The notes under the pieces are model-generated. The model was not told the origin of the DNA. It saw nothing but the letters and a program-made list of their open reading frames with translations, and did no database searches. 64,000 bases of DNA from the human T2T-CHM13v2.0 reference genome, Homo sapiens, in assembly GCF_009914755.1 (NCBI RefSeq), contig NC_060930.1; one strand, given 5' to 3'. The stretch's first letter is position 1. Every line of letters starts with the position of its first letter. Of this stretch, positions 14,229-17,200 are shown one piece after another. The translations under genes were made by a program, and so were the position numbers.

Positions 14229-17200
14229 CTAGCCCTGGGCCCCTGTCCCCAAGGCCAGCTCGCTGAGCCTGCGCTCCTCCTGGAAGCGGATGAGGGCATC
14301 TCTCTGGTTGACCAAATCCACCAGCTTCCTCAGGACCTGGTCCTCAGCCTGCCGATCAGCAGCTGTCTTTAGGTTTTCTAAAAGGAGGAGACAAAGCTTA
14401 GAGAACAGGGAACTGGGCAGGGAAGCAGGAGGGCCACAACCTAATCCCAGCCTATGTGATTTCTATAACCCGGGCTTTGTTTCCTAAGCTGCCAAATTAG
14501 GAGGGTTGCCAACACCAGTGGTTTTCTAGCACTACTGAGCAGCACGATTTTTTTTGAAGGAGATCTTATACAAAAGCCAACTGTGCAGCTCTGATTGAAC
14601 TGAAGTGAGAAGGGGCTTTGGAGCCCCCTCCTCTGGCTTCCTCCTGAATTGTCTCAGAGGTACACAGACTAGAGCATCATGTTGCTTGGTCAGTATCTGA
14701 GATCATGAGGCTTGCATGACACATCCCTGGGATGTGTCTGCTTCTCCCCACATTTCACCTACCTTCCCGGTTCATGTAGCCTCGTAGCTCCTGGTCCAGC
14801 TGCCACTGTTTCTCCTCCAGATTCAATTCCTGCACCCTGTGGAGGTCAGGGATTGTAGAAGCAGAGCTGTCTAAGGTGCCCAAGGGGCTGGAGCCTGGCC
14901 CATGGGCCACTGTCACCATCCCCTTCCCCTTACGTGATCATGAGCTCGGCCTCCTCAGCCACCAGGCTGTTTTTCTTGTCAACGAGCTGTAGCAGCTGTC
15001 CTACCCATAGTTTCTTTTGCTGTTCTGGGGAACCTGAGAAGAAGGAAGATGGGTAGGGTGATCAGGAGGCTTCCAGCCAGCACCACAGGAGTTACAGGCT
15101 TAGGGGAGACAGGAGAGCCGGGTGTCACAGGTATGTGTTAGCTGTGTGGCATAGCCACTGGGACTCCTACGGGCTGGAGCGTGGAGCTGAACACAGTGCT
15201 AGAAGGCAGAGGGGTGTCCTAGCTTGTCACTCACTGCTCTGGCGCCTCAAGGCCAGCTCCAGCTTCACGCCCTCGGCCTCTAGCTCCCTCAAGGCAGCCT
15301 CAATCTCATTTAGTCGCCGTTGGATGGTCTGAGGGGTACAAGACAGAATATCCAGGAGTCTCTAGGTTGCTCAAGAACAGAGCACTGGAGGAACTCTGAT
15401 CTCAGTCTCAGAACTTTGACCCCATCAGAATTTTGGGAACCCCCGGGCTTCACCTGGGCCTTGCAGAACCTCTTCATCTCCTCCTCCTTCGCACGGCGCA
15501 GCAGAGTCCGACGCCATGTTGGGTAGTTATTCATGGTGCCTGAGGTCTTGGCAAAGGTCTGCAGGGCCTATAGGAGGGTCAGGCCAGTCAGGGATAGGGC
15601 CTGGGCCCCCTGGTGGATAGGAGTGTTGTTTGGAAAGGCAGAAAATAACCCGTGCTGAAGTGGGGTAAGCTCTGGTAGAAAAGGTAGAGGCCAGAGATAT
15701 GACAGGCCAAGTGAGAAGACATTCCAAGAGAAGGGTGCAGTGGACCAGTGCAGGTTTCTCCTGTAGTGGGCTGGAGAGCGTTTTGTGGCTGCACGCTGGC
15801 CCACTCACCTGTTCCACATCTGAGTCCAAAGGCACATCTTCTTCTTCCTCTTCACTGGAGAAGGGACTCTCTTTTTCCTCCTTCTCCATGGCCACAAGAG
15901 CTGAGAAGAAGAACTGAGACGTTCTACTGCCTCCAGCGCCTGCCCCAGTCAGGCAACAAAGAGCATGGTGGTGACGGAGGCCCTGCAAGTCTGGTAAAGA
16001 CTGAATGTATGTGTTGGGGCATGGGAGGAACTGAGAAGAATGGAGCAGAGGAGAGGCTGCCACGGCCTGGGATCCCCACAACTTCCCTCTGTATTCCCCA
16101 GAATTCCTCTGCAGGAAGCCAGTGCTCCCACCCTGTCCCACCCTGGGTCAGCACATCTGTGAGGATGGGTTACCTTGAGGGCTCTGGACTGGCAGGCCCC
16201 AGCCCACAAAGCTGCTCTCCAGGGCGTGGCGGGCCAAGGCGGAGCAGCTGCGGGGAGGCTTGGGTGGAGGCTCCATTTCCGGGTCAGGGGTAAGGTTAAG
16301 GGAGGACAACCGCTGGCGCTCCGGGCTGGAGAGGCGGATCTGCCGACGGGTGGGCTGGCTGGGATCTGGAACAGGACCGGCCCCCTCCTGCGAGGCTGTG
16401 GGAGTTGAGAGGCCTGGTGGCATGCTATTCTCACTTGGTGTGGGGAGCTCCTGGAAAAGCCACCATGTGGAGTGAGGTCGGGGGGTGAGGCCACCCCTTC
16501 GGAGCAAAGGTGAGCCTTGGCATTCATTCACTTAAAACCATTTACAAACAGTGTCTGGCTGTGTTTTAGATACTTGAGAGAACAAGAAGTGTAAGCAGAC
16601 AGGCATCCCTGCCTTCACAGAGCTTACATGCTAGTAGAAGACGACATTCAGTTACCCCCAGCAAAGCGCTGGTTTGACGAGACCCTCTTCCTCTTCCCAT
16701 GCCCCAATATACATACACGCCTTCAGTCTTTACCGGACTCTCAGGGCCTCTATCGCTGCCTTCCGCTTTGTGGTCTGTCTGGGGCAGGTGCTGGAGGCAG
16801 TAGAAATGTCCTGGAAAGGGTAGAGAGGGGAGGAGGCATTTGGTGTGGGCAGCCCAGTGCCCAGACACGCAACAGTTTATGAAGGAAGGTGGGGAAAACA
16901 AGACAGATTTGCAGGTGAATTTCTGCCAGCCTCCTGTTCCTCAGAACCACACATCTGGAGCTTTGCAGGGGACAGAGAAGACCCTGAGCTCAGGAGAACG
17001 AAGTGCCATCTTGAGCCTGTTTCCATCCTGTGCCTCTCTACCTCAAGCTCTGTGTCCCCCAAGCAGGGCCAGGCCCAGAGTCTCTCTGGAGGTCTCCCAG
17101 GCCCACTCACCATCTCCTGGGTGCTGCTCGTAGCCACCTGGCCACAGTGTGGCCTCACAGGTATGGCAGCGGAAGCAGCTCCGGTGGAAGAAATGGCCGT

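What the first reader, a model, noticed from the sequence alone, without database searches (positions are those of the whole stretch)
15901..16810. MICAL1 carries an inverted copy of its own exon 18 and donor in intron 19: a built-in pre-mRNA hairpin over exons 18-19
Seen: + strand 15922-16026 aligns to the sense sequence of exon 18 and the start of intron 18 (16805-16695), with 57/72 exonic and 12/12 donor-side identities ([24 protein letters not shown]|VKTE vs [24 protein letters not shown]|VKTE). It is not a transposon I recognise. It includes intron sequence, so it is a DNA-level inversion-duplication and not a retrocopy. In the pre-mRNA the two arms are complementary, about 105 bp long and about 670 nt apart. 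Pairing would bury exon 18 with its 5' splice site and loop out exon 19. Exon 18 (77) + exon 19 (277) = 354 nt, phase 1 to phase 1, so co-skipping is in frame (118 aa). That removes the last two LIM zinc ligands (C747, H750) and the PPKPP SH3-binding motif but keeps the C-terminal autoinhibitory/Rab-binding domain. Inference: an exon-derived, structure-based splicing switch.
Basis: partly seen in the sequence, partly recalled or inferred. Interest (0 to 1): 0.85.

Follow-up and report, generated by a model that had tools for sequence, protein, structure and literature searches.

The report
Inverted exon-18 copy inside MICAL1
MICAL1 really does carry a one-off backwards copy of its exon 18 just in front of exon 20, most likely a scar of DNA copying that could fold the unspliced RNA into a long hairpin, though nothing yet shows the cell uses it.

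Summary
Window 15918/15922-16029 (+) is a reverse-complement copy of MICAL1 exon 18 plus the first ~42 nt of intron 18 (16810-16692). It has 91 of 108 aligned columns identical and two small indels. The human genome holds only these two copies, and no masked repeat overlaps them.

New here: the copy sits in the polypyrimidine tract of the exon 20 acceptor. It is bracketed by a short direct repeat (9/9, or 12/13) that carries an acceptor-like AG. That leaves a decoy acceptor 130 nt upstream and a second AG 13 nt upstream.

The pre-mRNA duplex is strongly predicted: -172.6 kcal/mol against -64.9 +/- 5.9 for shuffles, with pairing probability near 1. The frame arithmetic for skipping exons 18+19 is correct.

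No evidence supports a selected splicing switch:
- 0 of 3 RefSeq mRNAs skip exons 18+19.
- Only 2 of 11 transitions keep sense-strand pairing as G-U, and the antisense duplex is the more stable one.
- The likeliest branch-site region of intron 19 lies inside the stem.

A published SF3B1-mutant cryptic 3' splice-site event maps to this intron.

Best reading: a templated-insertion scar that rebuilt the exon 20 acceptor, with the hairpin as an untested by-product. Age and conservation could not be tested here.

The parts
15918..16029 (+). Inverted copy. On the + strand it reads as the sense of MICAL1 exon 18 (15918-15993) plus the first ~36 aligned nt of intron 18 (15994-16029). In the MICAL1 pre-mRNA (- strand) it is the 3' arm of the hairpin, inside intron 19.
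   Evidence: alignment, 91/108 identical; only two copies in the genome; translation.
16692..16810 (-). Source segment and 5' arm: exon 18 (16734-16810) plus the first 42 nt of intron 18, including the 5' splice site.
   Evidence: RefSeq exon table. Pairing probabilities.
15911..15919 (+). Left copy of the flanking direct repeat (GAACTGAGA, 9/9). The alternative register is 15898-15910, which is 12/13 with 16028-16040 and spans the exon 20 acceptor AG and the first 3 nt of exon 20.
   Evidence: exact k-mers; local alignment score reached by 0.45% of 2000 shuffles.
16028..16040 (+). Right copy of the flanking direct repeat (16028-16036 for the 9-mer, 16028-16040 for the 13-mer). It holds an acceptor-like AG.
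16031..16056 (-). Decoy acceptor 130 nt upstream of exon 20: AG at 16032-16031 preceded by 18 pyrimidines in 20 nt. I infer it is the pre-insertion polypyrimidine tract. Using it would give a frameshift and premature stop (895 aa).
   Evidence: pyrimidine counts, AG list; frame; repeat.
15914..15915 (-). AG 13 nt upstream of the canonical acceptor, at the edge of the copy. Best candidate for the published SF3B1-mutant cryptic 3' splice site. Using it gives a frameshift (880 aa).
   Evidence: Paper tables and span mapping. The exact cryptic AG is not given in the text I could read.
15901..15913 (-). Canonical exon 20 acceptor AG (15902-15901) and its short remaining pyrimidine tract. It lies outside the long-range stem (long-range pairing probability 0.00).
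15922..15949 (-). Branch-site candidates of intron 19 inside the 3' arm: a yUnAy-type motif with A at 15949 (48 nt from the acceptor) and the A-rich stretch 15925-15922 (21-24 nt from the acceptor). A15925 is paired with probability 1.00. A15915 is the only candidate outside the stem.
   Evidence: No branch-point mapping was possible.
16174..16450 (-). Exon 19 (277 nt), enclosed in the ~660-nt loop of the predicted hairpin.

Best explanation
The feature is the scar of a single DNA-level templated insertion.

Origin. A replication or repair template switch copied about 108-112 bp of the opposite strand. The copied segment was exon 18 from its first bases plus ~42 nt of intron 18. It was laid down about 700 bp away, inside the polypyrimidine tract of the exon 20 acceptor. 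A short direct repeat was left on either side.

Shown: the copy is real, unique, inverted and crosses an exon-intron boundary. It is bracketed by a 9/9 (or 12/13) direct repeat.

Inferred effect on the acceptor. The insertion pushed the original pyrimidine tract, and whatever branch site it served, 130 nt upstream. There it now forms a decoy acceptor. Exon 20 keeps only a 13-nt tract, an extra AG at -13, and branch-site candidates that lie inside the inserted sequence. That makes a weak, poorly differentiated acceptor. This would account for this intron being one of the strongest cryptic 3' splice-site events in SF3B1-mutant cells.

The hairpin. In the pre-mRNA the two arms can form an imperfect duplex of about 105 bp. 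I take this as a by-product of the insertion, not a selected switch. Where it forms, it should hinder the exon 18 donor and the intron 19 branch region. Minor products could follow: slow or failed removal of intron 19, some exon 18-19 skipping, an exon 19 circle, or A-to-I editing. The main mRNA stays constitutive.
For: - Unique two-copy status: the whole-genome search found only self and exon 18. No masked repeat is listed between 9671 and 21182. 1 of 49 window exons has such a copy.
- The alignment crosses the donor: 57/72 exonic, 12/12 donor, 91/108 overall.
- The flanking direct repeat abuts the homologous block at both ends. It shares 2-3 nt with the source at each junction (my reading).
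- No poly(A) at either end.
- Acceptor architecture: the decoy at -130 has 18/20 pyrimidines, the canonical site 16/20, the -13 AG 8/20. Eight AGs lie between the decoy AG and the canonical AG.
- No sign of selection on pairing: 2 against 9 transitions. The sense duplex is -172.6 and the antisense -194.0 kcal/mol. Exonic differences fall 5/5/5 on codon positions (my count from the list), as expected if the copy drifts as non-coding DNA.
- All 3 RefSeq mRNAs contain exons 18, 19 and 20.
- Published data: an upstream alternative 3' splice site in MICAL1 rises in SF3B1-mutant cases (inclusion difference about -0.52 and -0.51). It is in both top-20 tables of PMC5029572. Its 641-nt span matches only 15809-16450 among all MICAL1 exon boundaries.
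- Template switching is a described source of reverse-complement repeats and RNA hairpins (abstract of PMC8794818; search listing of PMC5453318).
Against: - The differences are not spread evenly: 1/27 in the LIM-coding part, 14/45 in the linker-coding part, 2/36 plus two indels in the intron-derived part. Permutation gives p = 0.004 for the 45-nt window and p = 0.021 for the maximal chi-square. Plain neutral decay of one event does not predict this. Selection on the two ends of the stem is one possible cause. Patchy gene conversion or repeated template switching between the arms is another.
- The duplex is very stable and survives in every context folded: 951 nt, 1721 nt, and the partly spliced intermediate. 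An effect on splicing is therefore plausible.
- The direct repeat is purine-rich and low in complexity, so part of its match could be chance.
- The cryptic AG used in SF3B1-mutant cells is not stated in the text I could read. The paper's supplements are closed.
- I could not obtain any orthologous sequence. Age, polarity of changes and conservation are unknown.
Confidence: 0.58

Rival explanations
1. The hairpin is a selected, structure-based switch. When it forms it hides exon 18 and its donor and loops out exon 19. Exon 17 is then joined to exon 20, giving an in-frame 949-aa MICAL1 without the end of the LIM domain and the PPKPP motif.
For: - Geometry and stability are as claimed. Donor long-range pairing probability is 0.89.
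- Co-skipping is in frame, while skipping either exon alone is not: 748 and 810 aa truncated products.
- The two ends of the stem are much better preserved than the middle.
- Stable structures that loop out exons go with lower exon inclusion genome-wide (passages of PMC8052449). Reverse-complementary matches promote exon skipping in C. elegans (abstract of PMC8330042).
Against: - 0 of 3 RefSeq mRNAs skip the exons.
- Paper searches for MICAL1 with exon skipping and alternative splicing found 9 papers (7 listed). The two I opened describe other events.
- Transitions do not favour sense-strand pairing, 2 against 9.
- The stem covers branch-site candidates A15925-15922 and A15949, which the exon 20 acceptor would need. 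Only A15915, 14 nt from the AG, stays free.
- The 5' arm is transcribed about 700 nt before the 3' arm, so the donor can be engaged first (inference).
Confidence: 0.1
2. The structure acts on the choice of exon 20 acceptor. Pairing of exon 18 with the copy hides upstream branch sites and competing AGs inside the insert. It partly hides the decoy pyrimidine tract too. The spliceosome is thereby steered to the canonical AG. Mutant SF3B1, or failure to pair, exposes the upstream sites.
For: - The eight AGs between the decoy AG and the canonical AG: six (15924, 15927, 15931, 15940, 15983, 15991) lie inside the 3' arm, a seventh (16001) is the G of a pair listed, and the -13 AG (15914) lies outside it.
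- Decoy tract pairing probability is 0.48 (0.38 long-range). The canonical AG and its tract have long-range pairing 0.00.
- Exon 18 still pairs with the copy after introns 17 and 18 are removed: 59 pairs.
- This intron carries a strong SF3B1-mutant upstream 3' splice-site event.
- A 2025 preprint reports that SF3B1-sensitive junctions have weak, poorly differentiated sites within extended pyrimidine tracts (abstract of PMC11870503).
Against: - The decoy AG itself is predicted to be mostly unpaired (0.28).
- No structure-probing or mutational data exist for this intron. MICAL1 does not occur in the main text of the structure papers found.
- The same lack of sense-strand G-U preservation applies.
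Confidence: 0.15
3. The copy works as an exon-complementary sequence for ADAR. The long duplex recruits the enzyme, and the A-C mismatches in the exon 18 arm are edited. That would recode H750, D755, S761 or R763 to the residues encoded by the copy.
For: - The sense duplex holds 9 A-C mismatches. Six have the A in the exon 18/intron 18 arm. Four of those are in codons: 16789, 16774, 16757 and 16751 (residue numbers).
- Editing sites are strongly enriched in stable long-range complementary regions (passages of PMC8052449).
- A opposite C, and a 5' U with 3' G as at 16751, is a preferred ADAR context. That preference is recalled, not from a call.
Against: - A search for MICAL1 with A-to-I and editing gave 3 papers (2 listed), and by title and abstract neither listed paper concerns MICAL1 editing.
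- Editing databases could not be consulted.
- Editing H750 would destroy a zinc ligand.
Confidence: 0.08
4. The inverted arms flank exon 19 and promote its back-splicing into a 277-nt circular RNA.
For: - The arms lie on either side of exon 19 and bring its two splice sites together.
- Reverse-complementary matches are required for circle formation in C. elegans (abstract of PMC8330042).
Against: - 'circMICAL1' occurs in 0 papers.
- The search combining MICAL1 with back-splicing and circRNA listed one review holding all three terms, which I did not open.
- The upstream arm is itself mostly an exon that must be spliced.
- circRNA databases could not be consulted.
Confidence: 0.06

Closest known systems
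Template-switch mutations / templated insertions that create reverse-complement repeats (Loytynoja and Goldman 2017, PMC5453318, search listing only; Monttinen and Loytynoja 2022, PMC8794818, abstract read)
   Same: A reverse-complement copy of nearby sequence made in one DNA event. It is capable of forming a hairpin stem in the transcript. Later switches between the arms can re-homogenise parts of a stem, which could explain the mosaic similarity seen here.
   Different: The events described there are called short in the title. This copy is about 110 bp and lies about 700 bp from its source. It copies a coding exon with its donor site and landed in a splice acceptor. The ancestral state could not be reconstructed here.
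Long-range complementary regions in human pre-mRNAs that loop out exons (PCCR catalogue, PMC8052449; RIC-seq study PMC10573301 and ATE1 study PMC7797038 seen as listings only)
   Same: Two complementary regions several hundred nt apart in one pre-mRNA. They enclose an exon and overlap a splice site, with a very favourable predicted energy.
   Different: Those catalogue entries are defined by conservation, and some by compensatory changes. This pair is a recognisable duplicate of an exon. It has no testable conservation here and no sense-strand G-U bias. MICAL1 is absent from the main texts found. The supplementary catalogues are closed.
Inverted repeats (mostly Alu) flanking circularised exons
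   Same: Inverted arms on both sides of an internal exon. 30-40 nt suffices in reporter work (recalled).
   Different: The arms are unique sequence rather than a repeat family. The upstream arm is an exon plus its donor rather than purely intronic sequence. No circle is reported.
Exon-complementary sequences that direct ADAR editing (for example the glutamate-receptor Q/R and R/G sites; recalled)
   Same: Intronic sequence complementary to a coding exon, with the duplex spanning the exon-intron boundary and A-C mismatches in the duplex.
   Different: The complementary element lies beyond the next exon rather than in the adjacent intron. No editing is known.
SF3B1-mutant-sensitive cryptic 3' splice sites (PMC5029572; PMC11870503 abstract)
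   Same: An upstream AG 13 nt from the canonical AG, inside an interrupted pyrimidine tract with an A-rich stretch upstream. The paper reports a peak spacing of 15 nt and validated sites at 11-17 nt.
   Different: Here the unusual acceptor can be traced to an insertion of exon-derived sequence. That origin is not described in the passages I read.

Membership tests
Template-switch / templated inverted insertion | Reverse-complement copy of a unique nearby source | tested here: met
   91/108 identical to the opposite strand about 700 bp away. Only two copies in the genome.
Template-switch / templated inverted insertion | Junction signatures (microhomology or short flanking duplication) and no retrotransposition hallmarks | tested here: inconclusive
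   A 9/9 or 12/13 direct repeat abuts the insert (0.45% of shuffles reach the score). There is no poly(A), and I read no TT/AAAA-type target at either model's empty site. The repeat is low-complexity purine-rich sequence.
Template-switch / templated inverted insertion | Ancestral empty site in an outgroup | not testable with these tools
   No non-human vertebrate DNA is reachable. The protein search with exon 19 found nothing.
Processed retrocopy | Intron-less copy with a poly(A) tail | tested here: not met
   The copy runs 36 aligned nt into intron 18 and has no A-tail.
Interspersed repeat / transposon | Many dispersed copies, masked as repeat | tested here: not met
   Two copies genome-wide. 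No masked repeat is listed between 9671 and 21182.
Functional long-range pre-mRNA structure (exon loop-out) | Stable complementary arms within one transcript | tested here: met
   Duplex -172.6 kcal/mol against -64.9 +/- 5.9 for 200 shuffles. 105 long-range pairs, most with probability near 1. z = -7.0 for the 951-nt fold.
Functional long-range pre-mRNA structure (exon loop-out) | Conservation or compensatory substitutions | tested here: inconclusive
   There is no orthologue data. The within-genome proxy gives 2 sense against 9 antisense G-U-compatible transitions (two-sided binomial p = 0.065), which does not favour selection on the sense RNA. The mosaic similarity could point either way.
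Functional long-range pre-mRNA structure (exon loop-out) | An associated alternative splicing event | tested here: not met
   0 of 3 RefSeq mRNAs skip exons 18+19. RNA-seq was not available, so rare events remain untested.
ADAR exon-complementary sequence | Observed A-to-I editing in the paired exon | not testable with these tools
Neither of the 2 papers listed by the search concerns MICAL1 editing, judged by title and abstract.
circRNA-flanking inverted repeats | Back-splice junction of the enclosed exon | not testable with these tools
   0 papers for 'circMICAL1'.
Known RNA family (Rfam) | Match to a curated covariance model | tested here: not met
   0 matches at E <= 1 in 15500-17300 on both strands.

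The most novel reading that the evidence does not exclude
An exon has made its own antisense guide. A single inverted copy of exon 18, placed in the next-but-one intron, forms a duplex of about 105 bp that the cell uses. It could act as a switch for the in-frame loss of exons 18-19, giving a MICAL1 without an intact LIM domain and SH3-binding motif but with its autoinhibitory tail. It could also act as an ADAR guide whose A-C mismatches recode exon 18 towards the residues still written in the copy. The well-preserved stem ends over the exon start and the donor site would then reflect selection rather than gene conversion.
Probability: 0.1. Interest if true: 0.75.

Novelty: new member of a known kind. 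Interest (0 to 1): 0.42.

Why it matters
It is a clean natural example of how one DNA copying error can do two things at once. It gives a gene a very long internal RNA hairpin, and it rebuilds a splice acceptor.

It offers a concrete origin for one of the strongest cryptic 3' splice-site events reported in SF3B1-mutant blood cells. That origin can be tested with a small minigene.

If the hairpin proves to act on splicing or editing, it would show that exon-derived inverted copies can seed structure-based regulation of a cytoskeletal redox enzyme. If it proves inert, it shows that a constitutive donor and branch region can tolerate a predicted -170 kcal/mol competitor. That too is informative for models of co-transcriptional splicing.

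Tried and rejected
- Retrocopy or L1-mediated origin: rejected. Intron sequence is included and there is no poly(A). I read no L1-type target at either model's empty site.
- Repeat family: rejected.
- Known RNA family: none.
- Extension of the duplication beyond the block: MAFFT and local alignment found no homology left of about 15918 or right of 16029. A 24-nt, 75% match of 16049-16072 to the exon 17/intron 17 boundary (pair I2) is not colinear. It resembles the other short chance pairs in that list, so I treat it as chance.
- Orthologues for dating: the only feasible protein query (exon 19, 92 aa) found no candidate. 25 candidates of unnamed source were left out by the tool. A full-length MICAL1 query would have needed a joined sequence, which I did not type. 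No vertebrate DNA collection is available. Age therefore stays open. Raw divergence is 17/108 overall, 3/63 in the flanks and 14/45 in the centre. With recalled neutral rates that spans roughly a few tens to more than a hundred million years.
- CpG bookkeeping (3 CpGs in the copy, 4 in the source, none shared by my reading) did not settle polarity.
- Literature: 10 searches. None describes this inverted copy, an exon 18-19 skipped isoform, a MICAL1 circle or MICAL1 editing. The search for inverted duplication with pre-mRNA, exon, intron and base pairing gave 6 papers, none relevant by title or abstract. Supplementary tables that might list MICAL1 were closed and not seen. These are the PCCR catalogue, the RIC-seq contacts and the exact SF3B1 cryptic coordinates.
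- One search used a wrong CDS start (my error) and its output is void. One search replaces it.
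Full report
**Observation**

The region was read directly and searched for repeats.
- Two adjacent inverted-repeat blocks were found. 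One is 15922-16012 with 16715-16805 (91 nt, 80% complementary). The other is 16014-16029 with 16692-16707 (16 nt, 94%).
- A gapped local alignment joins them into one block of 108 aligned columns with 91 identities. Indels of 4 and 2 nt lie in a TG/TA-rich stretch of the intron-derived part.
- Predicted pairing adds four more pairs at the base, 16811-16808 with 15917-15920. Homology therefore starts at, or within a base or two of, the first base of exon 18.

**Not chance and not a repeat**
- A whole-assembly search with 15901-16060 returned two places only: itself and exon 18 (E 5.2e-19).
- RefSeq's masked-repeat list has nothing between 9671 and 21182.
- Rfam gave no match at E <= 1.
- I blasted all 49 merged RefSeq exons of the window, each with 30-nt flanks, against the window. 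Exon 18 was the only one with a second copy outside masked repeats. All other extra hits were to stretches RefSeq masks as repeats, which I take to be Alu, or to short matches next to them.
- Exon 18 is the original. Pfam LIM matches exon 17 over profile positions 1-41 of 58, so the domain must finish in exon 18. It is the intron 19 segment that is bracketed by a direct repeat.

**How it got there (inference from sequence)**

The copy is flanked by a direct repeat. GAACTGAGA occurs at 15911-15919 and again at 16028-16036 (9/9). In another register, 15898-15910 matches 16028-16040 at 12 of 13. A local alignment this good between the two flanks was reached by 0.45% of 2000 shuffles.

With the 9-nt register, the insert is 15920-16027. 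That is almost exactly the homologous block, and 2-3 nt at each junction are shared with the source.

There is no poly(A), I read no L1-type target at either model's empty site, and the copy contains intron sequence. An RNA-mediated origin is therefore unlikely. A replication or repair template switch with a short flanking duplication fits. Such events are described as a source of reverse-complement repeats and hairpins (abstract of PMC8794818; listing of PMC5453318).

**Where it landed**

Read on the MICAL1 strand, the repeat contains an acceptor-like pyrimidine run ending in AG. This gives three candidate acceptors.

| Site | Position of AG | Pyrimidines in the 20 nt upstream | Consequence if used |
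|---|---|---|---|
| Canonical | 15902-15901 | 16 of 20 | normal 1067-aa protein |
| -13 AG | 15915-15914 | 8 of 20 | frameshift, 880 aa |
| -130 AG (decoy) | 16032-16031 | 18 of 20 | frameshift, 895 aa |

I infer that the insertion split the original acceptor region. The old pyrimidine tract was moved 130 nt upstream as a decoy.

Eight AGs lie between the decoy and the canonical AG. A branch site upstream of the insert is therefore unlikely to serve the canonical acceptor. The plausible branch sites are:
- the A-rich stretch 15925-15922, which is 21-24 nt from the AG;
- a yUnAy-type motif with A at 15949;
- A15915, which is 14 nt from the AG.

All except A15915 lie inside the inserted copy.

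**A link to published data**

PMC5029572 lists an alternative 3' splice-site event in MICAL1 in both of its top-20 tables, SF3B1-mutant against wild-type cases and against controls. The longer, upstream-site isoform is raised in mutant cells, with inclusion differences of -0.517 and -0.509.
- The table gives hg19 coordinates 641 nt apart. Among all pairs of MICAL1 exon boundaries, only 15809-16450 (low end of exon 20 to high end of exon 19) has that span.
- I mapped the event by that equality, not by a lift-over.
- The same paper reports that upstream cryptic sites peak 15 nt from the canonical site, and that validated cases lie 11-17 nt upstream. The -13 AG is therefore the likeliest site.
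- The exact coordinate is not in the text I could read, and the supplements are closed.
- A 2025 preprint describes SF3B1-sensitive junctions as weak, poorly differentiated sites within extended pyrimidine tracts (abstract). That description fits this acceptor.

**The RNA hairpin**

| Quantity | Value |
|---|---|
| MFE of 951 nt of sense pre-mRNA | -413.1 kcal/mol |
| 20 shuffles of the same | -356.9 +/- 8.0 (z = -7.0) |
| Long-range pairs, 16811-16684 with 15917-16056 | 105 |
| Arm duplex, sense RNA | -172.6 kcal/mol |
| 200 shuffled 3' arms | -64.9 +/- 5.9 kcal/mol |
| Perfect complement | -287 kcal/mol |
| Each arm folded alone | about -34 kcal/mol |
| Arm duplex, antisense RNA | -194.0 kcal/mol |

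- Most long-range pairs have probability near 1.
- 100 of the pairs persist in a 1721-nt context.
- Exon 18 still makes 59 pairs with the copy after introns 17 and 18 are removed in silico.
- Long-range pairing probabilities: exon 18 donor 0.89, A15925 1.00, A15915 0.02, decoy AG 0.02, canonical tract and AG 0.00.
- These are equilibrium predictions for naked RNA. In the cell, the 5' arm is made about 700 nt before the 3' arm and can be bound or spliced first (inference).

**Is it a selected switch?**

The arithmetic is right. Skipping exons 18+19 gives 949 aa in frame and removes C747, H750 and PPKPP (starting at residue 830). Skipping either exon alone shifts the frame.

Several results speak against a selected switch, or fail to support one.
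- All 3 RefSeq MICAL1 mRNAs include both exons.
- Of the 17 differences, 11 are transitions. Two leave a G-U pair in the sense RNA. Nine leave an A-C mismatch there and a G-U only in the antisense RNA (binomial p = 0.065).
- The antisense duplex is about 21 kcal/mol more stable than the sense duplex.
- The 15 exonic differences fall 5, 5 and 5 on the three codon positions (my count from the list). That is what a non-coding copy would show.
- The stem hides most branch-site candidates that an exon 17 to exon 20 splice would need.

**An observation that does not fit simple decay**

The differences are clustered.

| Part of the block | Differences |
|---|---|
| LIM-coding part | 1 of 27 |
| Linker-coding part | 14 of 45 |
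| Intron-derived part | 2 of 36, plus two indels |

- Permutation p = 0.004 for the densest 45-nt window and p = 0.021 for the maximal chi-square over all intervals.
- The intron-derived part should be neutral in both arms, yet it is far more similar than the linker part (Fisher p = 0.005).
- Patchy gene conversion or repeated template switching between the arms would explain it without selection. That process is described for inverted repeats (abstract start of PMC8604942 in the listing; abstract of PMC8794818).
- Selection on the two ends of the stem would also explain it.
- I cannot tell these apart without orthologues.

**Other readings kept open**
- The nine A-C mismatches are the kind of site ADAR prefers (recalled). 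Four have the A in exon 18 codons (H750, D755, S761, R763). Editing them would recode to the residue encoded by the copy.
- The arms flank exon 19 as inverted repeats flank circularised exons.
- Searches found no report of MICAL1 editing, no 'circMICAL1', and no mention of MICAL1 in the main text of the long-range-structure papers.

**Verdict**

The functional inference is untested, with mild internal evidence against it. The best-supported account is a unique templated inverted insertion that rebuilt the exon 20 acceptor and incidentally created a very stable potential hairpin. I could not date it or test conservation, because no non-human sequence was reachable (and the tool set).

Noticed in passing
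window 15809-16450 (intron 19 acceptor, AGs at 15915-15914 and 16032-16031): A published SF3B1-mutant alternative 3' splice-site event in MICAL1 (PMC5029572, Tables 2 and 3) maps by its 641-nt span to exactly this intron. The -13 AG at the edge of the inverted copy is the likeliest cryptic site, but the exact coordinate was not visible.
   Followed up: partly
window 15922-16029 vs 16692-16805: The transition differences are lopsided. Nine give A-C mismatches in the sense RNA (G-U only in the antisense RNA) against two that give G-U in the sense RNA. The antisense duplex is about 21 kcal/mol more stable. This runs opposite to the coding-strand mutation bias I recall for transcribed mammalian DNA, and it is unexplained. 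n = 11, p = 0.065.
   Followed up: partly
window 15938-15992 vs flanks 15922-15937 and 15993-16029: Similarity is a mosaic: the centre of the copy is 31% diverged and the two ends about 5% (permutation p 0.004-0.02). Possible causes are gene conversion or template switching between the arms, a mutation cluster, or selection on the stem ends.
   Followed up: partly
window 15995 and 15949 (- strand): The antisense of the copied exon 18 donor site reads as a branch-site-like yUnAy motif (A at 15995). A second such motif has its A at 15949. The inserted sequence therefore brought potential branch sites into intron 19.
   Followed up: no
window 16049-16072 vs 17095-17118: A 24-nt, 75% inverted match between the sequence just beyond the copy and the exon 17/intron 17 boundary. 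It is not colinear with the main block and is probably chance.
   Followed up: no
window 35702-36006 within 32632-36612: The first exon of MICAL1 transcript NM_001286613.2 lies inside the terminal exon of ZBTB24 on the same strand. One MICAL1 isoform therefore starts within the neighbouring gene's last exon, as annotated by RefSeq.
   Followed up: no
mouse Mical1 (not in the window): A mouse microglia study (PMC9467408) reports a significant alternative 3' splice-site event in Mical1. The exon is not named in the passages read, so its relation to this intron is unknown.
   Followed up: no
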